Below, piece after piece: positions 1 through 36,859 of a stretch of 36,859 nucleotides of DNA. The stretch comes from a virus. Lineage: Duplodnaviria; Heunggongvirae; Uroviricota; Caudoviricetes. The notes beneath the pieces were generated by a model, which worked only from the letters and a program-made list of their open reading frames with translations, was not told where the DNA came from and made no database searches. The translations under genes and the position numbers were made by a program. The stretch lies in the IMG/VR virus record IMGVR_UViG_2541047855_000003, one strand, 5' to 3'. Every line of letters starts with the position of its first letter. The first letter of the stretch is position 1.

Positions 1-59
1 GGTATCCGTTCTGCTGAAGTGTCATGGCGTTGATTTTACGGTGACTCTTCGACAGTGAA

Positions 60-85
60 AAGAAAAAAGGCCGCAGAGCGGCCAT
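60..85 (-). terminator. Possible rho-independent terminator downstream of the int-orphan transcript
   Basis: Short GC stem ggccg(69-73)/cggcc(79-83) with a 5-nt loop, adjacent to an A-run at 62-68 on + (T-run for minus-strand transcripts). Confidence 0.3.
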
Positions 86-189: not shown

Positions 190-585
190 TCATTCGCTCC
201 CCTCTTTTTCCTTATTTCGTTGAACGCCAATTGCGACACACGTACTAAGCAAATCTTTACATTTCTCTACGTCTTCAGACTTACGCAATTTGATGCTTTT
301 TACAGACTGCGGGCTACTGTCCGTAGCACGATACATCGTTATTTCAATATCATTTCGGTCTAAGAGTCCCATAATGGCTTTTGCAACCTCCACACCCTTC
401 TTCGCGAAATCAAAGAACAGAGCAAGTTTATATGGATTTTCGACGGAAAAAACTTCAATTTTGCTAAAACCAACATCGTGTAGAGAAAAATATTGCTCAA
501 CCTCATCTCGAAGTTCTGGATCGCATACAATGTCTATTCTCCAGTACTGACCTAAATGCAAATCGCTATTAACTGTTTTTTCCAC
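190..585 (-). CDS. Hypothetical protein (about 131 aa), AT-rich orphan gene immediately downstream of int
   Basis: ORF 190..606 (minus). Likely GTG start at 585 with AGGAGG 5 nt upstream; 10-nt gap after the int stop; acidic/lysine-rich, no obvious TM segment; no family recognised. Confidence 0.5.
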   Translation of the reverse strand: MEKTVNSDLHLGQYWRIDIVCDPELRDEVEQYFSLHDVGFSKIEVFSVENPYKLALFFDFAKKGVEVAKAIMGLLDRNDIEITMYRATDSSPQSVKSIKLRKSEDVEKCKDLLSTCVAIGVQRNKEKEGSE

Positions 586-595
586 AACATCCTCC

Positions 596-1570
596 TTACC
601 CAGCAATAGGATTAAATCTCACCGCATCCTGCAAGTAATCCGGCGCAAGATGGGCATAAATCATCGTTGTCTGAATCTTTGCGTGCCCCAGAATTTTCTG
701 GAGCGTCAGAATATTGCCGCCGTTCATCATGAAATGACTGGCGAAGGTGTGGCGCAGCGCATGAACAGCCTGGCCGTCAGGAACATCAGGTGCGACCGTT
801 TTGATGACATCGCGAACCAATGGATAATCCAGCGTCGGAAACACCAGTTTCCCGCCCCGTTTTTTGATCTTTTCAAACAGGCTTTCAGAAATAGGAACGG
901 TACGGTTTTTGCTGTTCTTCGTTTTTGAAAAAGTGATTCGACAATGAAGAACACGGCGCTGCTCCAGTGCCGCTACCTCGCCCCATCGCGCCCCGGTCGA
1001 CAGAAGGATTTCGACAGCCAGCCGTTCATCGGGATTTTCAGCCAGTGCATCCAGCAACTGAACACATTCAGACTTACTCAGATATCCCATTTCGCGCTCG
1101 TTAACCTTCATTCCTTTAAGGCCTTGAACGGGGTTATCGTTTAGAAAATGGCCGGATGAGATGAGTGCGGTAAACATCGCGCTTAACGCCCCAATCTCTC
1201 GATTTATGGTGCTGGGCTGTATCCCCTGCTCTATCCTGGACACACGTAGCTCGGTGAGCATCGTTGTATTAAGTTTATGCACGCACGGGTCATCCATTGC
1301 CTCACTCAAGCGCAGCAATTTAAGGCGCGTGTTATGCCCTGACTTCATTAGCTGGCCGTGGTATTTCCACCACAAGTCAATAAGCACTGACAGAGGACGG
1401 CGATCAATAGAGTTTCCTTTCCACTCATTGTTATGCTGTTGCGCCAGCACCCACCGCTCATATAAAACTGCATCCGATTTCGTTTTAAATTTTTTGCGAA
1501 TGCGTTTGCCTTTACGCCCCTCAGGGCGCATGTCAAGAAGATACCCTCCCGGAATTGATTTTATGCTCAT
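596..1570 (-). CDS. int: Phage tyrosine integrase (site-specific recombinase)
   Basis: C-terminal motif HALRHTFASHF...LGHAKIQTTMIYAHL typical of tyrosine recombinases; about 325 aa from MSIKS; the long ORF to 1720 is probably an upstream in-frame extension. Confidence 0.9.
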   Translation of the reverse strand: MSIKSIPGGYLLDMRPEGRKGKRIRKKFKTKSDAVLYERWVLAQQHNNEWKGNSIDRRPLSVLIDLWWKYHGQLMKSGHNTRLKLLRLSEAMDDPCVHKLNTTMLTELRVSRIEQGIQPSTINREIGALSAMFTALISSGHFLNDNPVQGLKGMKVNEREMGYLSKSECVQLLDALAENPDERLAVEILLSTGARWGEVAALEQRRVLHCRITFSKTKNSKNRTVPISESLFEKIKKRGGKLVFPTLDYPLVRDVIKTVAPDVPDGQAVHALRHTFASHFMMNGGNILTLQKILGHAKIQTTMIYAHLAPDYLQDAVRFNPIAG

Positions 1571-3923: not shown

Positions 3924-4313
3924 ATGATTGACGCTCATGACTTCACAAGATGGGTGCGCACACAGGACACCCGTCTGGCTCCCGTTCTCCAAGGATTATT
4001 GGATCTTTACATCCGTGGTCGTGACAACAGAGCACGCACTACAAAACCGGAGAATGTGGATACCCTTTATTTCACAGTAGACGACTGCTACCGCGTGGAC
4101 TTCACACCACACGGACTGGCGTTGCACTGCCTGACACCGCACGGCGAATCACTGCTGGCGTATTACGACTCCCCGGCCTCCGTATTTGCGGCAATGCTGG
4201 CGCATCGCACTGCTGGCGGGTGTGCCTCGCTGAGTGAATACACCGCTGAATTTAACCGCCTTTCCACCATCTTCTTGCAGGAGTGGCAGCGCGTGACGGG
4301 ATACCAGCCATGA
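3924..4313 (+). CDS. Hypothetical protein (129 aa) immediately upstream of and coupled to gene A
   Basis: Stop TGA 4311-4313 overlaps the A start ATG 4310-4312. Confidence 0.55.
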   Translation: MIDAHDFTRWVRTQDTRLAPVLQGLLDLYIRGRDNRARTTKPENVDTLYFTVDDCYRVDFTPHGLALHCLTPHGESLLAYYDSPASVFAAMLAHRTAGGCASLSEYTAEFNRLSTIFLQEWQRVTGYQP

Positions 4314-7093
4314 GTGAGTTTGCATGGAGCTGGAATGAACCACGACCAGCCATTGATCCGGCCAGATTTACGGAGCACAGGCAGGAAACTGAAACCGACC
4401 TGCAACGCGCCATCCGTTACTACCTTGAGGCAGACAAAAAGGCTCTGGAAGAACAGGAAGCGAAGGAGGAAGCCTTTTTCGCACAATCCACCGTGGGTAA
4501 AAAACTCATGGCATCCCTTGAGGAAGCCGGACAGCGTGAAAAGCTGGCACAAAGCATCATCAGCAAGCGTCAGGCAACAGAACAAGACCCGGTGGCCCGT
4601 GCTTTTGCCACACTGAAGGTGCTTCCCGTTTATCTGCGTGAACCTCTGAGCCGCCACCTCTCTTTCCTGCGCAAAAAACAGGAAGCCGATCGCCAGAAAG
4701 GCAAAAAGAGCTGGCAGGCTGAACGCTACGCGCGCGGAACCCTGCGCAAAATATTCGAACGTCTGGACCGCACCGATCACCGCTGGCTGACACCGGGTTA
4801 TCGCTCCCTTGCCGGACGCAAACGCCAGGACGATTTGCTTTACCTGCCGCAGCTCAACAAACACCAGATACAGACGCTGGCCACCATGACGGCGGCGATG
4901 TTCAGCAGCACCTTCGAAAAACTCTGCGATGGCTTTGGCGCGACTGATGGCGAACTGACCATGGATGTAACGCTGAAGGCGTATCAGATGCTGGCCCGCA
5001 TGGCGTTACACCTGCACACCATGCCTCCACATTATGACGCACTGACAACAGACAAAGACCGGAGGAACGAACCGGACACGGAGCTGCTGCCGGGCGCAAT
5101 CCTTCGCCTGACCTGTGCGGAATGGTGGAAACGCAAACTGTGGCTGTTACGTTGCGAGTGGAGAGAAGAACAACTCCGCGCCGCCTGTCTGGTTTCCAGA
5201 AAAACATCACCCTATCTGAGCCAGGACGCGTTAAGCGAGTTTCGCGCACAGCGCGAGAAAACACGCGATTTCCTGAAAAGTTTCATGCTGGAAAACGAAG
5301 ACGGGTTCACGATTGATCTCGAGACAGTGTATTACGCGGGAGTAAGTAACCCGGTTCACCGTAAGGCAGAAATGATGGCCACCATGAAGGGGCTGGAACT
5401 TCTGGCCGAGGCCCGTGGCGACAAAGCGGTGTTTCTGACTGTCACCTGCCCGTCAAAATACCACGCAACAACGGAGAACGGTCATCCAAACCCCAAATGG
5501 AACGGGGCCACCATGCGCGACTCCAGCGATTACCTGGTTAACACATTTTTTGCGGCGGTCCGCAAGAAACTGAACCGCGACGGCCTGCGCTGGTATGGCA
5601 TCCGCACGGTGGAGCCTCACCATGACGGCACCGTGCACTGGCATATGATGGTCTTTGCTCATCCGGAAGAAATCGACACCATTGTGTCCCACACCCGCGA
5701 TATTGCCATTCAGGAAGATCGTCACGAGCTGGGCGATGATATTACTCCGCGCTTTAAGGCGGAGTATGTCGACGGCTCAAAAGGCACGCCAACCAGCTAC
5801 ATCGCCACCTACATCGGAAAAAACCTGGACAGCCGCGCCGTGGATGGCATCGACCCGAAAACAGGCAAACCACGCGTTGACCACGAAACCGGAAAATCAA
5901 TGGCCGAGAGCGTGGAGCGCGCCATCGGCTGGGCGCGCCTTCACCGGGTCCGCCAGTTCCAGTTCTTTGGCATCCCCTCCCGTCAGGTGTGGCGTGAACT
6001 GCGCCGTCTTGCCAGCCAGATGGCACGCAACCCGGAAGGCCCGCAACGGCTGAAGGATGACGCAATGGATGCGGTACTCGCTGCCGCTGATGCCGGGTGT
6101 TTTGCCTCCTACATTGAAAAACAGGGTGGCGTACTTGTTCCACGCAAGGACTACCTGATTCGCACCGCCTACGACCTCGCAGATGAGCTGAACGATTACG
6201 GCGAACAGAGCGTACAGATTTACGGGATCTGGTCACCACTCATCGGGGAATCCTCCCGTGTGTGCACGCACCCGGATAACTGGAAGCTGGTAAGACGTAA
6301 ACCGGAAGCGGAAGACAGCACCCGCGAAAATGATTTTGACCTTCAGGGCGGCCCTGCCGCCCCTTGGACTCGTGGCAATAACTGTCCCCGTGTACAGGAA
6401 ACGGACAACAACGGGACAGAACAGCCGGAAGAACGGCCAGCACTGTGGCCGCAGCTTCCTGACGGCGTTGATGTGGATGAATGGATGCGCTCACTGAAAC
6501 GGCACGAACGCCGGGCGCTGATGCGTTCGCTTCGTGACAAACAGGCAAAAAACAGCAGTGATGAAATGCAGAGCTGGACACAGAGCCGCAAACAGCAGCG
6601 GCCTTTGCCTGATAACCACGAATTACTCGCTAAAGAATGGCGGGAATCTGCCGAATCTCTCGGCCTGCATATCGGTGAACAGCAGATGCAGCACCTGTTA
6701 CGAGGCGGCAGTCTGTACGTTGACGGCAGCATCATTGCACCGCAGGGATTTGAAATTGTACGCAAACCAGATACCCGACCGGACAGCCGAATCACGCAGC
6801 TCTGGCAGCGCCTGAGCCGTAATCACGGCGTAAACAGCACGGAAATCCGTCATAACCCGGTTTCCAGCTATCTGAAACAGCTCGGGGCATCAGACCCAGA
6901 AGCCGCTGCACGCCTGGCATCCACAATTCAGCAGGACCAGAACACCATGAAAACTCCCGTTACCGTGCTTTCTGACATGCTGCGCGCCATCCGTGACGCA
7001 GAGCACGCACAGAGAATCAATGAAACCACTGAACGCGCACGTCACAAGGCGAGTCTGTTGCAGGACAAAGGCAATAGCGAGAAGAAAAAATAA
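4310..7093 (+). CDS. A: Replication initiation endonuclease (P2 gpA-like, rolling-circle initiator)
   Basis: Motifs HWHMMVF and YIATYIGKN (paired catalytic tyrosines) typical of the phage GPA family; position after the early genes; long C-terminal region. Confidence 0.9.
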   Translation: MSEFAWSWNEPRPAIDPARFTEHRQETETDLQRAIRYYLEADKKALEEQEAKEEAFFAQSTVGKKLMASLEEAGQREKLAQSIISKRQATEQDPVARAFATLKVLPVYLREPLSRHLSFLRKKQEADRQKGKKSWQAERYARGTLRKIFERLDRTDHRWLTPGYRSLAGRKRQDDLLYLPQLNKHQIQTLATMTAAMFSSTFEKLCDGFGATDGELTMDVTLKAYQMLARMALHLHTMPPHYDALTTDKDRRNEPDTELLPGAILRLTCAEWWKRKLWLLRCEWREEQLRAACLVSRKTSPYLSQDALSEFRAQREKTRDFLKSFMLENEDGFTIDLETVYYAGVSNPVHRKAEMMATMKGLELLAEARGDKAVFLTVTCPSKYHATTENGHPNPKWNGATMRDSSDYLVNTFFAAVRKKLNRDGLRWYGIRTVEPHHDGTVHWHMMVFAHPEEIDTIVSHTRDIAIQEDRHELGDDITPRFKAEYVDGSKGTPTSYIATYIGKNLDSRAVDGIDPKTGKPRVDHETGKSMAESVERAIGWARLHRVRQFQFFGIPSRQVWRELRRLASQMARNPEGPQRLKDDAMDAVLAAADAGCFASYIEKQGGVLVPRKDYLIRTAYDLADELNDYGEQSVQIYGIWSPLIGESSRVCTHPDNWKLVRRKPEAEDSTRENDFDLQGGPAAPWTRGNNCPRVQETDNNGTEQPEERPALWPQLPDGVDVDEWMRSLKRHERRALMRSLRDKQAKNSSDEMQSWTQSRKQQRPLPDNHELLAKEWRESAESLGLHIGEQQMQHLLRGGSLYVDGSIIAPQGFEIVRKPDTRPDSRITQLWQRLSRNHGVNSTEIRHNPVSSYLKQLGASDPEAAARLASTIQQDQNTMKTPVTVLSDMLRAIRDAEHAQRINETTERARHKASLLQDKGNSEKKK

Positions 7094-7273: not shown

Positions 7274-8395
7274 ATGGGCGACTTAGGTGGTATTCAGTCA
7301 GATTTAGCCCAACTAGTTAGACTGGTAATAGCTGAACAGTATGATGACGTTCGGTTATATGTCGCTCGCTTGGTGCGTAAATATCGGGAAACTATGCCTG
7401 CTCTATCCGAGCAGCTTGATCTTTATCTACGAAATAAACCGCAAAAGCCTGCACAAAGTCTGCGTAAGGTTACCGCACCAAAACAAGCGCTGCCTCAAAC
7501 CATGCCTGTGGACGAGGAGTCAAGGCTTACCTTGCTTAAAGCACCAAATGAAAAGATTGTGAGCAAACCTCTACTGTCCAGTCAGATAGAAGACTCACTG
7601 GATCAAATTATTCTTGAGCGGAAGCACATCGATCGCCTCAAGGCTCTCGGCTTACAACCAACACGCTCTGCCATTTTTGTTGGCCCTCCGGGTGTAGGTA
7701 AAACACTTACGGCAAGCTGGTTAGCTCAGAAATTAGGGGTTCCTTTTTACGTTCTTGATTTAACGGCAGTAATGAGCAGCTATCTGGGCAAAAGCGGAAA
7801 TAACCTTCGGGCAGCTCTAGATTTTGCGAAGAAAGGGCCGTGCGTTCTTCTGTTAGATGAAATTGATTCAATCGCCAAAAAGAGAAGTGATGATTCTGAT
7901 GTTGGAGAATTAAAAAGACTTGTTACCGTGATACTCCAGGAGGTTGACGAATGGCCGTCTTCTAGTTTGCTACTTGCTGCAACTAACTTCGCTGAGTTGA
8001 TTGATCCAGCACTATGGAGACGTTTTGATTTAGTGCTCAATTTTGAGAAGCCAGATAGTGAAAGTATTAAAGAAGCAATTAAACGCTTTTCAGGTCCCGA
8101 CTACGCGATTTTTGCACGTTGGATAGATCTACTGGCTATTATGTTCAAAAATGAATCTTTTAGTAATATTGAGCGTTCTATCAACAAATTCCGACGTTCG
8201 GTCGCTTTAGGTATTTCCTCAGATGAAGAGTTGATTGGGTCGTTCATTAAAGATGGTTTATCAGAATTAGACAGGAATGAACGTAAAGAAATTGCAGTTA
8301 CTCTAAAAAGAAATTCTAAATTATCCCAGCATGCCATATCAGACTTAACCGGAGTCAGTAGGGATACAATTAGAAAATACAGTCAAAAAATGTAA
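7274..8395 (+). CDS. ietA: Classic AAA+ ATPase with C-terminal HTH-like tail (IetA-like defence ATPase candidate)
   Basis: Walker A GPPGVGKT (K143, about nt 7700), Walker B LLLDEID, sensor-1 LLLAATN, arginine-finger region PALWRRFD; C-terminus LSQHAISDLTGVSRDTIRKY resembles an HTH. Symbol is from remembered architecture, not a search. Confidence 0.8.
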   Translation: MGDLGGIQSDLAQLVRLVIAEQYDDVRLYVARLVRKYRETMPALSEQLDLYLRNKPQKPAQSLRKVTAPKQALPQTMPVDEESRLTLLKAPNEKIVSKPLLSSQIEDSLDQIILERKHIDRLKALGLQPTRSAIFVGPPGVGKTLTASWLAQKLGVPFYVLDLTAVMSSYLGKSGNNLRAALDFAKKGPCVLLLDEIDSIAKKRSDDSDVGELKRLVTVILQEVDEWPSSSLLLAATNFAELIDPALWRRFDLVLNFEKPDSESIKEAIKRFSGPDYAIFARWIDLLAIMFKNESFSNIERSINKFRRSVALGISSDEELIGSFIKDGLSELDRNERKEIAVTLKRNSKLSQHAISDLTGVSRDTIRKYSQKM

Positions 8396-8418
8396 TACAG
8401 CATAGATAAGGAGTATGT

Positions 8419-10644
8419 ATGGCGAAAACTAATTTTCTGATTGGACGCGGCGAATTATTAACCAGCGATATTCCTGGTCCTAAAAGAGTGCCCGGAAAAG
8501 CTGAGGTTTATTCTCTTTACGAATCGAAACAACGTTTATTGCCGCAAATTGCATCTACTATAGAAAATTTTGATGATTTACCCAGTCAGGCATGTCCTTA
8601 TGATTATGCTGTGGCTAAGTTGACGTTGAATCCGAGCTATATTGCACGCTCTTTTTTTCCTGCAAAAATGCTTAAGTCTACCGGGTTAACGTCTATTGGC
8701 AGCAGGACGGTAAAAATTACGCCTCAAAGCTGGAAGCGAAAAGTTACTGTGTCAGAAGTAACTACGACACAAATGTTTGTTGCTGGTAAAAGAGAATCCT
8801 TCAAAGAGTTACCTCATTGGGTGTCAGGACTCAAAGAGTTTTCTGACGAAGCGATTGATTTTGCACGCATAGAACGGTTCGATGCCTATTTACCCGAAGA
8901 GCGTATTATTACCATTGGTGAGCAGGATTCTTCGTATTTTGAGGTTGGTGTTCATTTACTGCCAGATAATGAACAAGACTTGGTTCAGCAACAATTTGTT
9001 CAGTTTGCATCAAATTTGAACATCAAAGTACATACTTCATTAGCTTTTACCGCTGGTACATTATGGTTCGTGCCAATCCAGGCCGATAGAATTACTATTA
9101 GTAAGCTTGCGAAATTTACATTTGTACGAGTAATAAGACCGGTTCCAAGATTGCGTGGGATTAGACCAATACAAAGGAACTACGGTCCTTTAGCTCAGTG
9201 TAAGTTGCCTGCTGAGGGCCCCGTATCTTCAGAAATAAAAGTTGCGATTCTTGATGGTGGTTTACCATCAGAGCACACTATATCGCCATGGTTAAAATCC
9301 TATAGAGTTTTGGACGATCATGCAGAGGATGATCCAGACGGTTTAGAGCATGGTTTAGCTGTGTCTTCAGCCTTTTTATTTGGACCAATAAGTAATAAAT
9401 CGGAAGCGAAAAGACCATACTCTTATATTGATAACTTAAGAGTTTTGGACAACAAGACCTGCCAAGAAGATCCGCTGGAACTATATCGAACTTTGGGCTT
9501 TATTGAAGAGGTATTGTTGTCTCGCCAGTATCAGTTTATCAATCTAAGTTTAGGTCCAGACCTACCAATTGAAGATACGGAAGTTCATGCATGGACTTCC
9601 GTTATTGATGATTTGTTAAGTGATGGTGAAACATTAATGACTGTTGCTGTTGGCAACAATGGAGAAATGGATCGCAAGTCTGGTAATGCAAGAATTCAAG
9701 TACCAGCCGATTGCGTTAATGCTCTTGCTGTTGGTGCTTGTGATACAGTTAATGATACGGAATGGAAACGAGCACCATATAGCGCCATTGGGCCAGGCAG
9801 AAGTCCTGGCGTGATGAAACCGGATTTAGTTGCGTTTGGTGGTGACACAGACGAGTACTTTCATGTTTTAGGTAAAGGTAAGAAGCCTGTAATCATACCC
9901 CAGCTAGGAACAAGCTTTGCCTCTCCTTACGCCTTACGAGCAGCTGTTGGTGTTCGGGCAGTTTTAGGGAACGATTTGAGCCTACTAGCAATCAAAGCTT
10001 TGTTAATTCATGCGTCAAAACAGCTTGATCATCCTTGTACAGAAGTTGGCTGGGGAAAACTGCCTGAAGACTTGAACGACATTATAGTCAGCCCTGATGG
10101 TATTGCCCGTATCGTCTACCAAGGTGAATTGAAACCAGGAAAATACTTACGCGCTTCTCTTCCAATACCTGAAGGTGGCTTGAAAGGTAGAATAAACTTA
10201 GCGGCAACTTTCTGTTATGCAACAACCACTGATCCACAAGACCCAGCTTCCTATACAAAAGCTGGTTTGGAAGTGACATTCCGGCCAAATGATTCAAAAA
10301 TCAAAGACGGAAAACAAAATGCTGAAACCAAGGGATTCTTTGAACTGGCCAAATATTCAACTGAAAGTGAGCGACGTTCTGACATGGGCAAATGGGAGAC
10401 CGTCTTACATAATTCGAAGAACATGCTAGGTTCAACTCTAAAAAATCCTGTATTTGACATTCATTATAACGCTCGTGAGGCCGGTGCAAGCATAGCCAGC
10501 CATAAGGCAGAAAAAATCAAGTATGCTCTTATAATTACCATTAAGGCATCAAAGCACCAAGACCTGTATAACGAAATTTTACGTACTTATAATCAGGTGC
10601 TCGTGCCAATTCAACCGCAAACATCAATTCCTATTCGTTCGTAA
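8419..10644 (+). CDS. ietS: Cytoplasmic subtilisin-like S8 serine peptidase with large N- and C-terminal extra domains (IetS-like candidate)
   Basis: S8 triad in canonical order: D279 (VAILDGG, nt about 9253), H311 (EHGLAVSS, about 9349), S499 (GTSFASP, about 9913), oxyanion Asn in VGNNGE; no N-terminal signal peptide; AAGGAG RBS 5 nt upstream. Confidence 0.85.
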   Translation: MAKTNFLIGRGELLTSDIPGPKRVPGKAEVYSLYESKQRLLPQIASTIENFDDLPSQACPYDYAVAKLTLNPSYIARSFFPAKMLKSTGLTSIGSRTVKITPQSWKRKVTVSEVTTTQMFVAGKRESFKELPHWVSGLKEFSDEAIDFARIERFDAYLPEERIITIGEQDSSYFEVGVHLLPDNEQDLVQQQFVQFASNLNIKVHTSLAFTAGTLWFVPIQADRITISKLAKFTFVRVIRPVPRLRGIRPIQRNYGPLAQCKLPAEGPVSSEIKVAILDGGLPSEHTISPWLKSYRVLDDHAEDDPDGLEHGLAVSSAFLFGPISNKSEAKRPYSYIDNLRVLDNKTCQEDPLELYRTLGFIEEVLLSRQYQFINLSLGPDLPIEDTEVHAWTSVIDDLLSDGETLMTVAVGNNGEMDRKSGNARIQVPADCVNALAVGACDTVNDTEWKRAPYSAIGPGRSPGVMKPDLVAFGGDTDEYFHVLGKGKKPVIIPQLGTSFASPYALRAAVGVRAVLGNDLSLLAIKALLIHASKQLDHPCTEVGWGKLPEDLNDIIVSPDGIARIVYQGELKPGKYLRASLPIPEGGLKGRINLAATFCYATTTDPQDPASYTKAGLEVTFRPNDSKIKDGKQNAETKGFFELAKYSTESERRSDMGKWETVLHNSKNMLGSTLKNPVFDIHYNAREAGASIASHKAEKIKYALIITIKASKHQDLYNEILRTYNQVLVPIQPQTSIPIRS

Positions 10645-11137: not shown

Positions 11138-12184
11138 TCAGGATGTGGGCTGGGTGTCTAACAGTGCGTAAGGGTTAAAGCGGATCACCTCTTCGCCAAG
11201 CCAGTCATTGATGTGCTTCATGGCCTCCATGACGGGCATCAGCTCGTTAATTGCGTAAACCCGCGCGGCCTTCTCCACATCACCAAATGCACTTTTTTCG
11301 CCCGGCATCGCCCCCATCAGTTGCGGCGGAACGCGGTGCACAGCCAGCACATCATCACGGGATGCCGCCTTAACATTCATGAACTCATCCTTTGCGGTGA
11401 TCTGCTGGAACGGCAAAATTTGCACACCTTCTTTGCCCCCGTTGGGCGCATGAATGAGCACGTTTTTAAACGCACCACCACCACGTGCACCCTGTAGCGT
11501 TTCTTTCAGGGAGTCCATGCTTTCGCGGTTTACCTGCGCTGCACCGATGTAGATGATACACCCGGCGTGGGATCCGTTGTCGTAATACAGTTTTCTGAAC
11601 ATGTCCGCCGAATGAGACAGGCTGGCCGAGAGTAATGCGCCGAGATATTCCGGCATGCCGTAGATTTCCTGGTTAATGTCAGGATTCATCAGGTGGCACA
11701 CTTTGCCAGGGCGAAACTGAAACGCGTCCTTACCATCCTGCACATACCACCATGATTCAAGATCGCTTCCGCGTCGCATGTATTTCGCCAGGGCGTGCCG
11801 TAATTTAAGCGGTTCGCCGAGCATATTGCTTCGAAGCTCAAGGAATGCGTTACCGAACACAAACCAGTCCAGCGCCAGCGCCGAGAAATCCTGCCGGGAA
11901 AGCAGCGGGTGCGGGATGTAGCAACCGAGTAATACATTGCGCTTAAAGTAAAGCGCAGACTGATGCCAGGACGTTTGCCGGGCTGCTCTTGCCAGACCGT
12001 ACCAGTCCACCGGGGTTTCATACCACCGCCCGTTATCAGCACAGTACATATTGTCCAGCAGGTCATGCCCGGTCAGGCGATAAGGACCATCAAATGTGAA
12101 TGCACTGAGCGATGATTCTTTCCTGAGCGCATCAGCGAGATCAATGCGTGAACTCATGCGCACTTTTTTATTTTTTCTGCTCAT
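11138..12184 (-). CDS. Q: Portal protein (P2 gpQ-like)
   Basis: 348 aa, minus strand, immediately downstream of the terminase ATPase gene as in P2; size matches gpQ. Confidence 0.85.
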   Translation of the reverse strand: MSRKNKKVRMSSRIDLADALRKESSLSAFTFDGPYRLTGHDLLDNMYCADNGRWYETPVDWYGLARAARQTSWHQSALYFKRNVLLGCYIPHPLLSRQDFSALALDWFVFGNAFLELRSNMLGEPLKLRHALAKYMRRGSDLESWWYVQDGKDAFQFRPGKVCHLMNPDINQEIYGMPEYLGALLSASLSHSADMFRKLYYDNGSHAGCIIYIGAAQVNRESMDSLKETLQGARGGGAFKNVLIHAPNGGKEGVQILPFQQITAKDEFMNVKAASRDDVLAVHRVPPQLMGAMPGEKSAFGDVEKAARVYAINELMPVMEAMKHINDWLGEEVIRFNPYALLDTQPTS

Positions 12185-30959: not shown

Positions 30960-31116
30960 AGCTTCAGCCCCTTGTATCCGTTAAATGATTCGGCAACAAT
31001 CATCACCCACCACGCGCGTAATCTCACCCCTGCGCCGTTCTCCCGCCACGGCGACAACAAAAAGCAGTAACCCCCTACGCACGCACATGCGACCATGCCG
31101 CACAGGGAGGGAACAG

Positions 31117-32226
31117 ATGACCGATACCACCATGCAATTGCTCAGTCAGAGCACAGACCCCGTGAAAATGCCGGATTTTGATATTCTCGCGGAGGGGGAA
31201 ACACTGTCCGGCGTGGCAGAGCGCCTGATGAGCCTGTCACTGACCGACAACCGGGGATTTGAAGCGGACCAGCTCACCATCACGCTGGATGATGCGGATG
31301 GTCAGTTGCAGCTACCGCCACGGGGCGTGCGCCTGACGGTTCTCATTGGCTGGAAAGGAGAACCGCTGACAGAAAAAGGCACTTACATTGTTGATGAAAT
31401 CGCTCACGAAGGACCGCCGGACAGGCTGACGGTTTCAGCCAGAAGCGCAGATTTTCGGGATGAATTTAACGTTAAACGTGAGGTGTCCTGGCATGATGTG
31501 ACCGTTGAGCGCGTGGTATCCGCCATCGCTCATCGGTATGGTCTGAAACCGCAAATCAGCGAAATGCTGATGGATATAGAAATCGACCACGCCGACCAGA
31601 CCGAAGAAAGCGACATGTCCTTTCTTACGCGCATGGCGGAAATGCTGGGCGCAATCACCACAGTAAAAAGCGGTAATCTGTTATTCATCATGCCCGGTGG
31701 TGGCGTGAACGCACAGGGCCAGCCGTTGCCATCGTTCGCCATCACACGCAGCAGCGGCGATCGCCATCAGTTCCGCATTGCTGACCGCGAGGCGTATACG
31801 GGTGTACGCGCCTACTGGCTTGATCTTAATTACGGGAAAAAGAAAAAAGTCAGCGTGAAACGCCGCAAACCGCAAAAACCCAAAAAGGAGAAAAGCAGCA
31901 GCCGTGAAGGTGATTATATGGAAGGCGCGGAAGGCAACGTGTTTGTGTTACGCAAGACTTATCAGAACGAGCAGGCAGCAAGACGCGCAGCGGCGGCAAA
32001 GTGGCAGCAGCTACAACGCGGAGCCGCAGCGTTCTCCATCACACTGGCACGTGGACGCGCAGAACTCTACCCCGAAATGCATGGCACGGTAACAGGATTT
32101 AAAAGCGAAATTGATAATCAGGACTGGATTATTGCAAAAGCCGAGCACACCATTGATAACAGCGGCTTTACCACGCAGCTTGAACTTGAGGCAAAAATCC
32201 CGGAATGGATAGCAGAAACAGCTTGA
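31117..32226 (+). CDS. D: Tail protein D (late control gene D-like)
   Basis: ATG 31117 with GGGAGG RBS; about 370 aa with lysine-rich internal stretch; position before ogr. Confidence 0.8.
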   Translation: MTDTTMQLLSQSTDPVKMPDFDILAEGETLSGVAERLMSLSLTDNRGFEADQLTITLDDADGQLQLPPRGVRLTVLIGWKGEPLTEKGTYIVDEIAHEGPPDRLTVSARSADFRDEFNVKREVSWHDVTVERVVSAIAHRYGLKPQISEMLMDIEIDHADQTEESDMSFLTRMAEMLGAITTVKSGNLLFIMPGGGVNAQGQPLPSFAITRSSGDRHQFRIADREAYTGVRAYWLDLNYGKKKKVSVKRRKPQKPKKEKSSSREGDYMEGAEGNVFVLRKTYQNEQAARRAAAAKWQQLQRGAAAFSITLARGRAELYPEMHGTVTGFKSEIDNQDWIIAKAEHTIDNSGFTTQLELEAKIPEWIAETA

Positions 32227-32394: not shown

Positions 32395-34428
32395 TCAACT
32401 TTGCCAATCATCAGCTATCTGTTGCCAATTAACTTTCCGAGGTTCTTTTGTAGTGCTAGACCACACATCCCAAAAATCAGGATCATCAGATTGCGGTCGT
32501 TGTTTTTCAGTAAGCTCTTTCATTCTAACTAAAACAGGAAGTTCTGAAGCCCATCCAAGTAAAATAGCATGCCTAGATGGTAACGATGGCAGCTCTCTCA
32601 ACAGCCCTCTCATATTATCTGGAACAAGTCTATGTACTTGCTCTTGATCTCTATCATTACTAATCCTGTGCAACAAAAAAGTATTACATTGAGATAAAAC
32701 CGTCGGAGATAGCTCTGATGGCCTTTGGGAAGAAACAACAAGGCCTAGCCCAAACTTTCTTCCTTCCCGTGCAATCTTTTCAAACACCTTGCAACATATA
32801 TCAGAGACTGACTGAGTTTCACTATCTTCCTTGTAACGTTTAATAAACGTATGCGCTTCTTCTGCAACTAAAACTGTTGGTAGCGGCCTTCCATTTAATC
32901 TTCGATAACGTTGTAGTGCTTCAAAAGCCACCCTAGAAATTACAGCTGTTACCAAATGAATTATTTCATTTGGTACTAGAGATAAATCTATAACAGTTAT
33001 AGATCCTTGTTCATTTTTACCGAGAAAAGTGTCTAACCAATTAGTTAAACTTATAGGCTTTACAGAATCATTGGTTACTGCACTAATACGAGTGTCACCT
33101 AGCATTGTTCGAATACGAGTCAAAAGAAACTCAACGAATTGTTCTGTACCTGTTTCTTGAGCCAGAGCTTCGAGATATGCGACAAAATCATCGCCTTTAA
33201 AACGCATAGGCGCATCTTCGCTTTTTGGAAGAAGTTCTTGTTCATCTCCCCCTAGAGCTGTATATGCATCTCTGAATCCATTAATCAACAACTCAATCTC
33301 GGAAACAACAGGCTTTGCTGGCCAAGAAGATCCACTTCGTGAAGAAAGATACGTATTTATTGTGTTTATTAGCTTATCGAGCGATTTATCAACAATTCTC
33401 TCGTTTAAGATAGAAATACTATCTCTCCAAGAACCCAAAGTTTCAACCAAACCTTTAGCAGATCCACTATTCACATATATCTGACCTTGACTTGCCTGCT
33501 GTCTCATAGATACAAGAAGGATACCGCAAAAGCGTTTGGCTTGAATTTTCACATCATCTTCTGATAGAAGATTATTCCTCATTGCCCTCAAAGCACGACG
33601 TAGTAAAGGAAGTTGCACCTTTGAACTTGCTTGAGTGAAAGCAGCCCACTCAGAACTATTCCATAACCATGAAGGTACTTTAAGATCCATCTCTCCGACA
33701 TCGATGTTAGCCTCTACACGTAATAGTTTACCCTTATATCTTGATTCTGGCCCTAAAGCTCTACTATATTCTCCGTTCGGATCAAGTATTATAAATCGAG
33801 CATTTGGAGATTTTCCCTGTTGTAAAACAGCATCAAGAGACCATTGAATTAAGCCGGCCACCGAACATGATTTACCACTACCCGTATTACCTAAAACAGC
33901 TATATGTCGTCCGAAAAGTCTATCGGGGTCTACTTTTATTTCAGCATTGTTAGCTAGGGGGCTATCCCCTATTTTTACCCTTCTATTATCACCTGATTCA
34001 ATTATTGATTGTAATTGTCGGTCAGTAGGCAAAAGCACAGAGTCACCAACCGAAGGGAAAGCATCAGTTCCTCTCGTGAACCTGAAACCTTCGTTTTTTC
34101 TATCAACTCTCAATGTACCAACTGGATTGATACTAAGCTTTTTAAGTGGGAAAGGAAGGTCTATCAACCCAAAATCTTGTAAGCCTCTTCTTTTGGGATA
34201 TGGCGAGTTTTCTATTGCAATCCACTCAACTTGCCCAACAAGAAACCCGTCATCACTACGGATTAAAATATAACTATTTATTCTAGGAAAATTACGAGGC
34301 GCCCCACCTTGAAGTGATACTGAATCAGGAGAATCAATCTCTAAAGACACCCTAATTTCATTAGGTGATACAAACTCAACAGTTCCAATTCTTAGTTGTT
34401 CTATTTTTTCTATTGGTAAATAACTCAT
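32395..34428 (-). CDS. herA: HerA-like P-loop ATPase (SIR2-HerA defence pair, ATPase component)
   Basis: Walker A GNTGSGKS (about nt 33868-33891), Walker B VLVAEEAH, SQRP motif; N-terminal beta-rich region; start at M3 (34428, GAGGT 6 nt upstream) or 34434; overlaps the upstream gene stop by 4 nt. Confidence 0.8.
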   Translation of the reverse strand: MSYLPIEKIEQLRIGTVEFVSPNEIRVSLEIDSPDSVSLQGGAPRNFPRINSYILIRSDDGFLVGQVEWIAIENSPYPKRRGLQDFGLIDLPFPLKKLSINPVGTLRVDRKNEGFRFTRGTDAFPSVGDSVLLPTDRQLQSIIESGDNRRVKIGDSPLANNAEIKVDPDRLFGRHIAVLGNTGSGKSCSVAGLIQWSLDAVLQQGKSPNARFIILDPNGEYSRALGPESRYKGKLLRVEANIDVGEMDLKVPSWLWNSSEWAAFTQASSKVQLPLLRRALRAMRNNLLSEDDVKIQAKRFCGILLVSMRQQASQGQIYVNSGSAKGLVETLGSWRDSISILNERIVDKSLDKLINTINTYLSSRSGSSWPAKPVVSEIELLINGFRDAYTALGGDEQELLPKSEDAPMRFKGDDFVAYLEALAQETGTEQFVEFLLTRIRTMLGDTRISAVTNDSVKPISLTNWLDTFLGKNEQGSITVIDLSLVPNEIIHLVTAVISRVAFEALQRYRRLNGRPLPTVLVAEEAHTFIKRYKEDSETQSVSDICCKVFEKIAREGRKFGLGLVVSSQRPSELSPTVLSQCNTFLLHRISNDRDQEQVHRLVPDNMRGLLRELPSLPSRHAILLGWASELPVLVRMKELTEKQRPQSDDPDFWDVWSSTTKEPRKVNWQQIADDWQS

Positions 34429-34430
34429 TG

Positions 34431-35843
34431 TCATACCTCAACTTCGGCTGAATTACCTAACTCTTTGAACTGCATAAAGCCTCTTTGTTTGAGCAACTCT
34501 GCCATCTTGATTGATGCTTTATCAATAGCTGGTTTAGGTAAATAGTTATCAACTAAAGTTTTGAAGTCTCCTAAATGATCTCCCATCAAAAGGGTAATCT
34601 GTGCTTTTCTTCCACTATTACTAATGAAACGCATAATTCTGCCAAGTGGATCGCCAAAGGCTATTATTACTATATGAGTGGAAGGTACCGTAAGCATGTC
34701 TTCAATTACTCTATTGATATGCTCATCACCAAAGCTATAACCATAAGTGACTAATGTGCTATTTGGACGGCTAGTTGCTGCTGCCAGATCTCGAAATAGC
34801 TCAACATAAGGATACTCGGCTGTTTCTCTGTCTTTTACTGAATTAGGGTAAATCATCAGTTTTTCATAGCCATTGCTTTGATGACCTTCGGCTTCCAAAA
34901 ACGGCTCAACAGAACGTGCTCCAAAGGGTAAGCCAAAGCGCCTAATCGCATTATTTTGTTCATGCCAATCAAGGGAACCATGAAGTTTAGTAAAACGTGC
35001 CACGCCCTCCAAGTATCTTGGTTCACCACGGATTCCAGGAGGATTATAATGATAATCAACTTCTAATCTTGAGGATCGAAATACTGGAGCAATACTTCCT
35101 ACAAAGCGATCAATAAGTCTTAAACCAGCAAGCTCAGCACCCACTTCAATAATACGGTCATAATTTGTTGTAAAGATATGTAGCCTATCGCGAGTGGCAG
35201 TTCTACTTGCAAAGCTCATCAAAAAACTAACTAGATAGTTGAAAGTTTCCTCTTTCCGGGCTGGTTCAGCAGTTTTGATTAAATATTCTCCTTTAATTAT
35301 AGATTTAGAAAACTCCCCCAAGCATCTAGAAAGCTCGCCTTTGAGCTCGCCCAAGTCTGCTTTTAAGTTTCTATAAGCAGAATAAGGAGGTGGCGGATTT
35401 TCTGGTTGAGGAGTATTTAACACCGTTAAAATTTCGAGACCTTTAATAAGTTCATTGATAGTTCTAATTTGATCTTCTATATTTCCTCTATCGCGACCTG
35501 CAGCTTTTGCAGCCTGAGTGGAAAATTCATCTATTTCGCTTTTACATACTTTTAAATCATTAATCCACCCCATCCCTACTGGAGATAAACCTGTAGCTGA
35601 TTTTTGAATAGCCGAGCTTAAGCCTGCACCGATTAATAAATTTAAATGCTCTGATTGGAAGAGAGCTGTTAGCCAGGGCTCAATATTTTGGCGCAATTTC
35701 TCAATTGATATTTCTGCCCCCTGTTCTCCCCATACACAGTTCTTCGAGAGGATAAAAGGATGAGAATCAGCATGCTCGCCAGAATTAGATGATAGATCAA
35801 TAATTTCTGATATACTGCCAACTTTTATATGTTGAATACTCAT
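34431..35843 (-). CDS. sir2: SIR2-family (sirtuin-like NADase fold) protein, partner of HerA
   Basis: SIR2-type motifs in order: LLIGAGLS, TTNYD, KLHGSLDW; likely start at 35843 (MSIQHIK); AT-rich codon usage. Confidence 0.8.
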   Translation of the reverse strand: MSIQHIKVGSISEIIDLSSNSGEHADSHPFILSKNCVWGEQGAEISIEKLRQNIEPWLTALFQSEHLNLLIGAGLSSAIQKSATGLSPVGMGWINDLKVCKSEIDEFSTQAAKAAGRDRGNIEDQIRTINELIKGLEILTVLNTPQPENPPPPYSAYRNLKADLGELKGELSRCLGEFSKSIIKGEYLIKTAEPARKEETFNYLVSFLMSFASRTATRDRLHIFTTNYDRIIEVGAELAGLRLIDRFVGSIAPVFRSSRLEVDYHYNPPGIRGEPRYLEGVARFTKLHGSLDWHEQNNAIRRFGLPFGARSVEPFLEAEGHQSNGYEKLMIYPNSVKDRETAEYPYVELFRDLAAATSRPNSTLVTYGYSFGDEHINRVIEDMLTVPSTHIVIIAFGDPLGRIMRFISNSGRKAQITLLMGDHLGDFKTLVDNYLPKPAIDKASIKMAELLKQRGFMQFKELGNSAEVEV

Positions 35844-36267
35844 AAATGCACTTCTTTTATTTGTGTTAAAAAACATACTTTTGTAGAGGCAAACGAGTGC
35901 CAAGAGTATGAAACTTAGCGATTAAGTTCGAATCTTACACCTCCCAAAGCCTCTGAGAATTATCAACCTAACCCAAAGGAACTCAATCAGCGTTTTATTT
36001 TAGCACGACTAAATAACTAGTAGATAGCGTCAAAGACAAACCGGGGAGATAAAAACTTACAACACTGCCACCAGTAAAATCATCTACATACCAACAAGTT
36101 GCCTTCAATCACGTAGAATAATCCTACTAGTGCATAGTCAATCTCGACTACTTACTCAGTGAAAATTCAACTGCAAACTTCTGGTTTTTACTCAAAGCAA
36201 GCAGTTAGTTGGAATCAGTATTAGTACAACTTAGAATAATAGAAACACCACGTTAAGGGAGGTCGCT

Positions 36268-36528
36268 ATGTTCCGTTGTCCACTTTGTGGCGCGTCTGCC
36301 CGTATCCGCACCAGTCGTCCGGAAAATGACTCAAACACCGTGCGGCAAAAGTATTACCAGTGTAATAACCTGGAATGCGGCGTATGCTTCTCAACACTGG
36401 AAGCTTTTCATAAGTTCACATCAAAACACACCTCAGAAGTTCATTCTTCAGAAGACATACCGTGGCAGGCTCTGCCAGCTTCACACAGGGGGAACAATCA
36501 GATGAGTTTGCCCTTATCTCAGAATTAA
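36268..36528 (+). CDS. ogr: Ogr-like zinc-finger late-gene transcription activator
   Basis: MFRCPLCGASARIRTSR...YYQCNNLECGVCF matches the Ogr Cys4 pattern (CPLC...RTSR...QC...C); AGGGAGG RBS; 86 aa, longer than P2 Ogr. Confidence 0.85.
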   Translation: MFRCPLCGASARIRTSRPENDSNTVRQKYYQCNNLECGVCFSTLEAFHKFTSKHTSEVHSSEDIPWQALPASHRGNNQMSLPLSQN

Positions 36529-36588
36529 CGAGCAGAATTGCCGGAGTAACAAAAAAGCGATAGATTACGCGCGGGTGCCTTTCGGCTT

Positions 36589-36852
36589 ATGGTCGGAGGG
36601 AATACCCGAAGGCCAGATGTGGAAAGGCCCCGGAAAACATCTCTGTTTAACCGAGGCCCTAACCGCATTACCTTGACAAGTGAAAGGTTAGCGCCTCTCC
36701 TGAAAAGGAGCAAGTGCTATGTCGCAAAAATCGCTTACGGCCATCACGTTCTGCGTGACGGCAATCCTCATCATCTGGATGCTGCACGGTTCGCTGTGCG
36801 AAATACGGATGAGCTTCTGGGGAGCGGAGTTTGCGGCGTTCTTACAGTGTAA
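36589..36852 (+). CDS. mok: mok-like overlapping reading frame (modulator of killing) of the hok locus
   Basis: ORF starting upstream of hok and overlapping it in another frame, as in hok/sok loci; no independent sequence evidence. Confidence 0.4.
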   Translation: MVGGNTRRPDVERPRKTSLFNRGPNRITLTSERLAPLLKRSKCYVAKIAYGHHVLRDGNPHHLDAARFAVRNTDELLGSGVCGVLTV

Positions 36853-36859
36853 GCAGTAA
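36719..36859 (+). CDS. hok: Hok/Gef-family type I toxin (small membrane protein)
   Basis: 46 aa MSQKSLTAITFCVTAILIIWMLHGSLCEIRMSFWGAEFAAFLQCKQ: N-terminal TM helix plus the family motif SLCEIR and AAF; AAGGAG RBS; stop TAA is the last codon of the window. Confidence 0.8.
   Translation: MSQKSLTAITFCVTAILIIWMLHGSLCEIRMSFWGAEFAAFLQCKQ

What the first reader, a model, noticed from the sequence alone, without database searches (positions are those of the whole stretch)
36541..36859. hok/mok type I toxin-antitoxin locus abutting ogr at the right prophage end
A 46-aa Hok/Gef-family toxin (SLCEIR motif, N-terminal TM helix) with an overlapping upstream mok-like frame lies about 190 bp after the ogr stop. 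It may be host DNA flanking attR or att-proximal cargo. An antisense Sok-like RNA would be expected on the minus strand near the mok start but I cannot delimit it. The window is truncated right after the hok stop.
Basis: partly seen in the sequence, partly recalled or inferred. Interest (0 to 1): 0.45.

Follow-up and report, generated by a model that had tools for sequence, protein, structure and literature searches.

The report
Known Hok/Sok toxin–antitoxin prophage cargo
The last 320 bases of the window hold a real but already catalogued Hok membrane-toxin gene with its antisense-RNA antidote, carried as cargo just inside the right end of a P2-family (P88-like) prophage of E. coli; it is ordinary apart from lacking a conserved 'mok' leader frame.

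Summary
Window 36719-36859 encodes a 46-aa Hok/Gef toxin (Pfam HOK_GEF 29.9 bits, cut-off 22), 190 nt after the ogr stop, and the window ends on its stop codon.

An identical E. coli chromosome supplies the missing 3' end. The locus then has the full hok/sok RNA layout:
- a promoter and a 5' GGGUGCC 'tac' box;
- a 3' GGCACCC 'fbi' box and a terminator, giving a ~409-nt mRNA;
- an antisense Sok-like RNA (about 36677 to 36617, minus strand), built like K-12 sokB.

Comparison with the K-12 empty site places attL at 59-83 and attR about 263 nt beyond the window, so hok is prophage cargo, not host DNA. The same ogr-hok pair sits at several other chromosomal sites and in sequenced P88-like phages.

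The overlapping 'mok' frame is doubtful. Only 7 of 23 leader variants keep such a frame, and none has a start codon where K-12 mokB/mokC begin, yet Hok is under purifying selection (dN/dS ~0.25).

The exact peptide is RefSeq-annotated, occurs in 28% of complete E. coli genomes, and appears as 72_1621 among homologues tested for toxicity in a 2026 preprint. Verdict: already known, low interest. The open point is how hok is translated without a conserved mok.

The parts
36538..36566 (+). Putative hok promoter: -35 TTGCCG (36538-36543), 17-nt spacer, -10 TAGATT (36561-36566), 6 nt before the conserved GGGTGCC
   Evidence: Read from the sequence. It is below the consensus-scan threshold. A TAGATT/TAGAAT/TAAATT/TAGAGT hexamer sits at the same distance from GGGTGCC in the homologues and in K-12 hokB/hokC.
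36573..36718 (+). hok mRNA 5' leader. It holds the tac box GGGUGCC (36573-36579), the ucb GGCCCCGG (36626-36633), the Sok-target hairpin (36626-36658) and a relic 'mok SD' GAGG (36653-36656)
   Evidence: Rfam RF01794 matches the + strand at 36573-36732 (57.3 bits, E 4e-12). The same model hits K-12 hokC/hokB on the hok strand.
36617..36677 (-). Predicted Sok-like antisense antitoxin RNA (~60 nt): a 5' tail GUCAAGGUAAUGCGG, then a GC-rich hairpin GGGCCUCGG...CCGGGGCC followed by UUUCC. The 3' end is approximate
   Evidence: Alignment with annotated K-12 sokB/sokC. Hairpin fold -26.9 kcal/mol, z -3.3.
36685..36713 (-). Sok-like promoter: -35 TTGCTC (36713-36708), 17-nt spacer, -10 TAACCT (36690-36685), +1 G at 36677. 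The -35 overlaps the hok Shine-Dalgarno
   Evidence: Same geometry as K-12 sokB (TTGCCG-17-TAAGAT-7-G). The hexamer positions and the 17-nt spacer are kept in all the homologues shown, with TATCCT as -10 in Salmonella.
36589..36852 (+). Overlapping 'mok-like' ORF. Possible starts are ATG 36589 (inside the tac stem) or TTG 36673. Probably not a conserved gene
   Evidence: ORF list. The frame is closed or lacks a start in 16 of 23 leader variants. There is no start codon at the mokB/mokC-homologous position.
36705..36710 (+). hok Shine-Dalgarno AAGGAG, 8 nt before the ATG, paired with the conserved anti-SD CCUCUCC (36694-36700)
   Evidence: Sequence. The local stem appears in the consensus fold. 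The probability that the SD is unpaired is about 0.00-0.03 for this locus, 0.00-0.43 over the 27 homologues, in both full-length and truncated models.
36719..36859 (+). hok: 46-aa Hok/Gef-family membrane toxin (RefSeq WP_000078916.1)
   Evidence: Pfam HOK_GEF above its cut-off. PHROG 251. RefSeq annotation. dN/dS about 0.25. Identical peptide 72_1621 in Table S2 of bioRxiv 10.1101/2025.08.07.668861.
36268..36528 (+). ogr (late-gene activator), the last core phage gene before the hok module
   Evidence: Pfam Ogr_Delta 52.6 bits. The order D-ogr-hok is kept in phages P88 and PhiR44_2.
59..83 (.). attL core AAAGAAAAAAGGCCGCAGAGCGGCC (the ihfA terminator). Its partner attR lies outside the window at the equivalent of 37122-37146
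   Evidence: 25-nt direct repeat with 1 mismatch. K-12 empty-site comparison.

Best explanation
This is a complete hok/sok-type type I toxin-antitoxin module. It is carried as accessory cargo between ogr and attR of a P88-like (Xuanwuvirus, P2-family) prophage integrated between btuC and ihfA.

Proposed mechanism, with shown and inferred steps marked:
1. A weak constitutive promoter (36538-36566) makes a ~409-nt hok mRNA that starts at 36573 and ends at a terminator about 120 nt beyond the window (inferred from sequence and homology).
2. The full-length RNA is closed by pairing of its 5' GGGUGCC... (tac) with a 3' ...GGCACCC (fbi). This keeps it untranslatable and hides the Sok target (shown in silico).
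3. Slow 3' trimming removes fbi. The 5' end then pairs with an internal GGCCCC box (ucb), and the target of the Sok 5' tail opens (predicted by folding here, established experimentally for plasmid R1).
4. A short, unstable antisense RNA (about 36677 to 36617) is made from a promoter overlapping the hok Shine-Dalgarno. It pairs there and triggers decay or translational block (inferred by homology).
5. If the prophage or its Sok supply is lost, or Sok falls on induction, Hok is made. Hok is a 46-aa inner-membrane peptide that depolarises and kills the cell.

The most likely biological roles are prophage retention (post-segregational killing) and/or helping lysis or phage exclusion. These roles are inferred from plasmid R1 hok/sok (prophage retention/post-segregational killing, phage exclusion) and Sp5 hokW-sokW (help with lysis on induction) and were not tested here. 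Unlike R1, translation of hok here probably does not depend on a conserved mok reading frame.
For: Toxin:
- Pfam HOK_GEF above its cut-off and PHROG 251 at 80.6 bits.
- The residues reported as conserved across Hok (C, T, L-C-E, E) are present (compared).
- dN/dS median 0.25 over 77 diverged pairs.
- The identical peptide is listed as 72_1621 among 45 homologues tested. 42 were toxic, and the three non-toxic ones are other IDs.

RNA architecture:
- RF01794 matches the leader at E 4e-12, and a K-12 control shows the model is in the hok-sense orientation.
- The 409-nt RNA folds at -181 kcal/mol, z -7.8, with a 16-nt 5'-3' closure.
- 26 of 27 distinct homologues show all 7 core tac-fbi pairs in their own MFE structure.
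- The consensus fold has 90 pairs, 14 of them with compensatory changes.
- The truncated RNA switches to tac-ucb in 16 of 27 homologues, and the Sok-tail target opens from about 0.1 to about 0.55 unpaired.

Sok: the promoter geometry and the RNA align with annotated K-12 sokB/sokC, and the hairpin fold is.

Cargo status:
- K-12 empty site and the 25-bp att core.
- ogr-hok next to ihfA, serS, hicAB/uvrC, a two-component system and DUF1131 genes.
- The locus is present in phage genomes P88, PhiR44_2, P884B11 and 500465-2 at 95-98% identity.
Against: - No RNA or protein was measured for this locus. Promoters, RNA ends and the structural switch are all predictions.
- Both promoters match the sigma-70 consensus poorly (8/12 for hok, 6/12 for Sok), and the consensus scan found none.
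- The Rfam score (57.3) is just under the gathering score (59).
- The tac-fbi core never varies, so covariation cannot prove it.
- In 11 of 27 homologues the truncated RNA did not switch in the MFE at my arbitrary cut point. The hok SD stays paired in both modelled states, so how translation is turned on is not explained.
- The biological role (retention, lysis aid or exclusion) is untested.
Confidence: 0.88

Rival explanations
1. The hok locus is host chromosomal DNA flanking attR, like the K-12 chromosomal hokA-E loci. It only happens to lie next to the prophage end.
For: It is the last feature before ihfA, and the window stops before any att site could be seen. E. coli chromosomes do carry several native hok loci.
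Against: K-12 has a 100-bp btuC-ihfA spacer with no hok. Window 1-83 and the sequence from 263 nt right of hok join there over a shared 25-bp core. The same ogr-hok unit is found beside serS, hicAB/uvrC, a two-component system and DUF1131 genes, and inside phage genome records.
Confidence: 0.02
2. The locus is a decaying, non-expressed hok relic. Having lost mok, Hok can no longer be translated, and the module only hitch-hikes with the phage.
For: There is no conserved mok frame. The hok SD is predicted to be paired in every modelled state. Both promoters are weak. Many chromosomal hok loci in K-12 are inactivated, for example mokA is a pseudogene beside IS150. One Salmonella lambdoid copy lacks the 5' end.
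Against: - The Hok ORF is intact in all 17 distinct CDS, with dN/dS about 0.25. For example, L001 and L035 differ by 7 synonymous and 2 non-synonymous changes.
- The promoters, tac/fbi, 3' hairpin and terminator are kept across E. coli, Salmonella, Citrobacter and three phage types.
- The locus is in 1521 of 5426 complete genomes.
- The peptide is reported toxic when expressed.
Confidence: 0.08
3. It is a canonical three-gene hok/mok/sok locus. In the window's variant, mok starts at TTG 36673 (or a near-cognate codon such as ATT 36667), and its translation is required to open the hok ribosome-binding site, exactly as in R1.
For: - The frame from TTG 36673 is open through the hok start.
- Citrobacter braakii has the same TTG in a different frame, ending in TGATG on the hok start. 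That looks like translational coupling.
- The TTG region becomes unpaired (0.26 to 0.74) in the truncated RNA.
- The hok SD stays sequestered without some unfolding force.
Against: - 16 of 23 leader variants have no such frame, including P88, Stx-phage and Salmonella copies whose Hok is equally conserved.
- No SD lies within 5-13 nt of the TTG.
- The mokB/mokC-homologous ATG is absent.
Confidence: 0.25

Closest known systems
hok/mok/sok (parB) of plasmid R1 and the E. coli K-12 chromosomal loci hokB/sokB and hokC/sokC
   Same: - A Hok-family toxin.
- A ~150-nt leader recognised by the same Rfam model.
- 5' GGGUGC tac and 3' fbi closure, with ucb pairing to a GAGG box.
- A stable 3' hairpin followed by fbi and a terminator.
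- A ~60-nt antisense RNA whose promoter overlaps the hok SD.
- The Sok hairpin motif GGCCUCGG...CGGGGCC shared with SokB/SokC.
   Different: - The toxin is shorter (46 aa against 49-52) and only 24-43% identical to HokA/B/C.
- The Rfam score is half that of the K-12 loci (57 against 110-118 bits).
- There is no start codon at the mok position, and no conserved overlapping frame.
hokW-sokW of Stx2 prophage Sp5 (Takada et al. 2021, PMC8621323)
   Same: A hok/sok-type module carried by a temperate phage. It is the only prophage hok module I found (literature searches) with a tested role: Sok falls on induction, Hok aids lysis, and phage release halves without it.
   Different: HokW is a different Hok cluster: 51 aa, MKQQKAM..., cluster 35 against cluster 72 here. 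It sits in a lambdoid phage. Stx phages also carry a separate ~81%-identical copy of the present locus next to lom, which as far as I found is untested.
Hok cluster 72 (peptides 72_1621 and 72_1589) in Escalera-Maurer et al., bioRxiv 10.1101/2025.08.07.668861; PHROG 251 'MokW-like host killing'; RefSeq WP_000078916.1
   Same: Peptide 72_1621 is identical to this protein. It is listed in a high-abundance cluster and was cloned for toxicity assays. That paper also reports that hok is enriched in prophages.
   Different: That study states it did not analyse mok, Sok or mRNA ends, and it does not describe the ogr-attR position.

Membership tests
Hok/Gef toxin family (Pfam PF01848) | Small (~45-55 aa) peptide with an N-terminal transmembrane helix and the conserved L-C-E core, scoring above the family threshold | tested here: met
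   HOK_GEF 29.9 bits against a cut-off of 22. PHROG 251 80.6 bits. The best NCBIfam hit is the HokA equivalog, but at 34 bits against a cut-off of 89, so it is not HokA itself. C12, T14, L26-C27-E28 and E37 are present.
Hok/Gef toxin family (Pfam PF01848) | Toxic to the cell when expressed | not testable with these tools
   Literature only. The identical peptide 72_1621 was among 45 homologues tested, and the 3 non-toxic ones are other IDs (preprint).
[quoted passage not shown] | Long-range 5' (tac) to 3' (fbi) pairing that closes the full-length mRNA | tested here: met
   GGGUGCCUU pairs with AAGGCACCC about 350 nt apart. It is in the MFE of this locus (z -7.8) and of 26 of 27 homologues, and in the consensus fold. 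The core is invariant, so it has no covariation support. The helix extensions differ between the E. coli and Salmonella lineages but still pair.
[quoted passage not shown] | Cis-encoded antisense Sok RNA with its own promoter inside the leader, overlapping the region upstream of hok | tested here: inconclusive
   The promoter hexamers, 17-nt spacer, +1 and terminator hairpin align with annotated K-12 sokB/sokC, and the hairpin fold has z -3.3. Sequence-level homology is good, but no transcript was observed and the hexamers are weak.
[quoted passage not shown] | Structural switch after 3' trimming: tac-ucb pairing that exposes the Sok target and the upstream SD | tested here: inconclusive
   The switch is predicted for this locus and for 16 of 27 homologues. 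The Sok-tail target opens from 0.11 to 0.55 unpaired. The cut point is arbitrary, and 11 homologues do not switch in the MFE.
[quoted passage not shown] | mok: an overlapping leader reading frame with its own SD and start under the Sok target, translationally coupled to hok | tested here: not met
   - An ORF exists in the window (36589-36852).
- No start codon lies 5-13 nt after GAGG.
- The mokB/mokC-homologous ATG is missing.
- Only 7 of 23 leader variants keep a TTG-initiated frame.
- As a positive control, the scan finds K-12 mokB; K-12 mokC is in frame with hokC.
- Near-cognate starts and very short leader ORFs cannot be excluded.
P88-like (Xuanwuvirus, Peduoviridae) prophage accessory locus | Lies between the attL and attR cores and travels with phage genes to different insertion sites and into virion-derived genomes | tested here: met
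   att core and K-12 empty site. Multiple insertion sites. Phage records P88 and PhiR44_2 have the order D-ogr-hok.

The most novel reading that the evidence does not exclude
This abundant 46-aa Hok cluster (cluster 72, HokA-like, phage-borne) may be regulated without any mok leader peptide. The tac/fbi/ucb switch and Sok are retained, but the ancestral mok start is gone while its SD-like GAGG box is invariant. If so, Sok would have to control hok by RNase III-type decay or by blocking a ribosome stand-by or refolding site, rather than by blocking mok translation. A related possibility is that late read-through from D-ogr gives 5'-extended transcripts that escape tac-fbi closure, since no terminator was found between ogr and hok.
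Probability: 0.35. Interest if true: 0.45.

Novelty: already known. Interest (0 to 1): 0.2.

Why it matters
As a finding it mostly confirms existing annotation. The protein is in RefSeq as 'Hok/Gef family protein', is in phage P88's record, and is in a recent Hok survey.

Three practical points come out of the check:
- **Position.** The module is a fixed passenger at the ogr-attR end of P88-like prophages in over a quarter of complete E. coli genomes. It sits between two variable slots that carry anti-phage systems, so it is a useful landmark for prophage boundaries and defence hotspots.
- **Rfam orientation.** The Rfam 'sok' model actually describes the sense hok leader, so strand calls for Sok made from it are wrong by construction.
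- **mok.** This cluster offers a natural test of whether hok regulation needs mok at all.

Tried and rejected
- **Rfam at gathering thresholds:** nothing in the whole window. The hok leader appears only in E-value mode, 1.7 bits under the cut-off.
- **Consensus promoter scan:** no sigma-70 site in the locus. The promoters were placed by homology instead.
- **The search for related loci with the single 46-aa peptide:** With an alignment it returned only 7 loci, several from evidently contaminated assemblies labelled Planococcaceae, Vagococcus and Xanthomonas.
- **Equating the locus with hokW because of the RefSeq/PHROG label 'MokW-like':** rejected. HokW is a different 51-aa peptide, and the Stx-phage relative of this locus is a second, separate hok next to lom.
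- **An 'anti-anti-SD' model:** I tested whether GAGG-dcb pairing in the truncated RNA frees the hok SD. The pairing is predicted in 15 of 27 homologues, but the SD stays paired, so the model is not adopted.
- **Papers on P2-like phages with hok next to ogr:** the full-text search found nothing specific.

Full report
**1. What is in the sequence**

Window 36719-36859 is an ATG-to-TAA ORF of 46 codons: MSQKSLTAITFCVTAILIIWMLHGSLCEIRMSFWGAEFAAFLQCKQ. The stop codon is the last three bases of the window.
- The ORF passes Pfam HOK_GEF: 29.9 bits against a gathering score of 22, E 4e-7.
- It matches PHROG 251 'MokW-like host killing' over its full length: 80.6 bits.
- Its best NCBIfam hit is the HokA equivalog, far below that model's cut-off (34 against 89 bits).
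- It is 43% identical to K-12 HokA and 24-26% identical to HokB and HokC.

An overlapping ORF in another frame (36589-36852) also exists.

**2. Extending the truncated locus**

A 100%-identical copy lies in E. coli MFDS1006657 (NZ_CP073589.1), fetched as L001. Window position = L001 position + 30199. RefSeq annotates ogr, then 'Hok/Gef family protein' WP_000078916.1, then ihfA-pheT-pheS on the other strand.

Features to the right of the hok stop (terminator scan):

| Feature | L001 coordinates | Window-equivalent |
|---|---|---|
| GC-rich hairpin | 6668-6693 | 36867-36892 |
| AAGGCACCC box | 6717-6725 | 36916-36924 |
| Intrinsic terminator | 6747-6781 | 36946-36980 |

**3. Inside or outside the prophage**

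The window begins at the start of btuC. In K-12 the btuC-ihfA spacer is 100 bp.
- Window 1-83 matches the K-12 spacer at 100% identity.
- The sequence from L001 6923 onward matches it at 99.5%.
- The two matches overlap on a 25-bp core, AAA[G/T]AAAAAAGGCCGCAGAGCGGCC, which is the ihfA terminator.

So attL is window 59-83, and attR lies 263 nt beyond the window end. The whole hok transcription unit is inside the prophage, about 140 nt from attR.

Independent support comes from other sites and from phage genomes:
- The identical or near-identical Hok follows D-ogr in prophages beside ihfA, serS, hicAB/uvrC, a two-component system and DUF1131 genes in E. coli and Salmonella.
- The locus is in sequenced phages PhiR44_2 (98%), P884B11 (97%), 500465-2 (95%) and P88 (95%), all P88-like Xuanwuvirus with the order D-ogr-hok.
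- Related copies sit at the right end of a second prophage type and of lambdoid prophages, next to lom or tail-fibre genes.
- 1521 of 5426 complete E. coli genomes carry at least 80% of the locus.

**4. RNA anatomy**

*Leader and Rfam orientation.* Rfam RF01794 ('sok') matches the + strand at 36573-36732 (57.3 bits, gathering score 59, E 4e-12). As a control, the same model hits K-12 hokC and hokB at 118 and 110 bits. Those hits are on the hok strand, opposite to the annotated sokC and sokB. The model therefore describes the sense hok leader, from the mRNA 5' end to the hok AUG. This places the hok +1 at 36573.

*hok promoter.* A -10-like TAGATT (36561-36566) lies 6 nt upstream of +1, with a TTGCCG -35 at 17-nt spacing. 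A comparable hexamer sits at the same distance in all relatives and in hokB and hokC.

*Full-length fold.* The 409-nt RNA (36573 to the terminator) folds at -181 kcal/mol, z -7.8. Its first 16 nt pair with the AAGG..GGCACCC region about 350 nt downstream. This is the tac-fbi closure that defines hok mRNAs (background in PMC9841398).
- Of 27 distinct homologous sequences, 26 show all seven core pairs in their own MFE structure.
- The RNAalifold consensus keeps the closure and has 90 pairs, 14 with compensatory changes. These are mainly in the coding-region stems, the 3' hairpin and the terminator.
- The tac-fbi core itself is invariant, so covariation neither supports nor contradicts it.

*Truncated fold.* Removing the fbi region makes the 5' end pair with GGCCCC (ucb) in this locus and in 16 of 27 homologues. 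It raises the unpaired probability of the Sok-tail target from about 0.1 to about 0.55. This matches the R1 paradigm.

**5. The antitoxin**

On the minus strand the layout is TTGCTC (36713-36708), 17 nt, TAACCT (36690-36685), 7 nt, then G at 36677. This reproduces the geometry upstream of the annotated K-12 sokB (TTGCCG-17-TAAGAT-7-G).

The predicted RNA is GUCAAGGUAAUGCGGUUAGGGCCUCGGUUAAACAGAGAUGUUUUCCGGGGCCUUUCC... It aligns with SokB and SokC through the shared GGCCUCGG...CGGGGCC hairpin. The hairpin folds at -26.9 kcal/mol, z -3.3.

In relatives the hexamer positions and spacer are kept (TATCCT in Salmonella, TTGACT as -35 in Stx phages). The segment encoding the Sok 5' tail is the most variable part of the leader. 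I read this variability as consistent with a role of the tail in Sok-target specificity (my inference; not tested). The Sok-like RNA is thus delimited to about 36677-36617, but only by homology. The consensus scan finds no promoter.

**6. mok**

- Aligned with K-12, the place where mokB and mokC start reads GAGGCCCTAACC, with no start codon.
- The window's frame can only start at ATG 36589 (inside the tac stem) or at TTG 36673. The TTG lies 16 nt from the GAGG box and has no SD of its own.
- Among 23 distinct leader variants, 7 have a TTG-initiated frame: 6 of the window type, and C. braakii in another frame ending TGATG on the hok start.
- The other 16 variants have a stop codon with no ATG, GTG or TTG after it, in any frame that would run from the GAGG region into hok. 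P88, the Stx phages and Salmonella are among them.
- Yet Hok is intact in all 17 distinct coding sequences, with median dN/dS 0.25.

So either hok is translated without mok in this cluster, or a near-cognate or very short leader ORF does the job. The hok SD is predicted to remain paired with a conserved CCUCUCC in both RNA states, so the activation step is unexplained. The authors of the recent Hok survey state that they did not analyse mok for the same reason.

**7. Comparison with what is known**

The peptide is identical to 72_1621 in Table S2 of Escalera-Maurer et al. (bioRxiv 10.1101/2025.08.07.668861). It is listed there in a high-abundance cluster and was cloned for toxicity tests. The text says 42 of 45 tested homologues were toxic and names the three that were not (19_179, 60_1482, 69_1540). 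This one was therefore toxic. The same paper reports that hok is enriched in prophages.

The only functional study of a phage hok locus that I found is hokW-sokW of Sp5, which speeds lysis and doubles phage release on induction. HokW belongs to a different cluster (35_712), so the RefSeq/PHROG label 'MokW-like' should not be read as identity.

**8. Verdict**

This is a genuine, complete and already catalogued hok/sok-type module, carried as cargo at the ogr-attR end of a P88-like prophage. Novelty class: already known. Interest is low (0.2). The residual question with some value is the apparent loss of mok in an abundant, selected Hok cluster. I give a truly mok-independent mechanism a probability of about 0.35.

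Noticed in passing
window 36573-36732 (+); L046 502-654 (-); L047 567-718 (-): The Rfam family RF01794, named 'sok antitoxin', matches the strand that encodes hok, from the hok mRNA 5' end to the hok AUG. In K-12 it lies opposite the annotated sokC/sokB genes. Strand calls for Sok taken from this model are therefore inverted.
   Followed up: yes
window 32395-35903 (-): A SIR2 (490 aa) plus HerA (679 aa) anti-phage pair (PADLOC 515 and 837 bits) is inserted between tail gene D and ogr. Sister prophages carry other cargo in the same slot (SIR2-STALD + ThsB-TIR, radical-SAM/HxsD, or a PIN_4 protein) or nothing, so D-ogr is a cargo hotspot in P88-like phages.
   Followed up: partly
window 7274-10644 (+): An IetA (AAA ATPase, 260 bits) plus IetS (subtilase, 172 bits) defence pair sits between the replication gene (4283-7093) and the portal gene (11138-12184). 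This is the position of old/tin in P2.
   Followed up: partly
L001 6782-6922 (window-equivalent 36981-37121); L004 4091-5321; L026, L029, L031: The stretch between the hok terminator and attR is also variable. It is about 140 nt here, but RES-domain, TM2, Com + N6_N4 methyltransferase or VasI-domain genes occupy it in other prophages and in phage PhiR44_2.
   Followed up: no
L005 about 1521-1937 (Stx2 converting phage I, next to the lom-like ORF-23): Stx-converting phages carry an ~81%-identical copy of this locus that is unannotated in many records. It is distinct from the studied hokW, so some Stx phages have two different hok modules.
   Followed up: partly
L013-L018 (Salmonella lambdoid prophage end, next to a cation-efflux/ZT_dimer (fieF-like) gene and a phosphofructokinase (pfkA-like) gene): This copy keeps Hok, the fbi box and the terminator, but lacks the GGGTGCC 5' end and the promoter region seen in all other copies. 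It may be a 5'-rearranged or decaying locus.
   Followed up: no
window 190-606 (-): A 138-aa ORF between attL and the integrase has no Pfam or PADLOC match. RefSeq calls it hypothetical (WP_000416304.1).
   Followed up: no
window 30985-32226 (+): RefSeq annotates tail gene D only from window 31426 (267 aa, 'VgrG/Pvc8 family'), with a small pseudogene fragment on the opposite strand upstream. The open frame is 413 aa, and gpD is 366-379 aa in relatives. The true start and the integrity of D next to the SIR2-HerA insertion were not checked.
   Followed up: no
L006, L007, L010 (records titled Planococcaceae, Vagococcus, Xanthomonas pisi): Near-identical E. coli-type hok loci turn up in assemblies of unrelated genera. 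This is most likely enterobacterial contamination of those assemblies.
   Followed up: no
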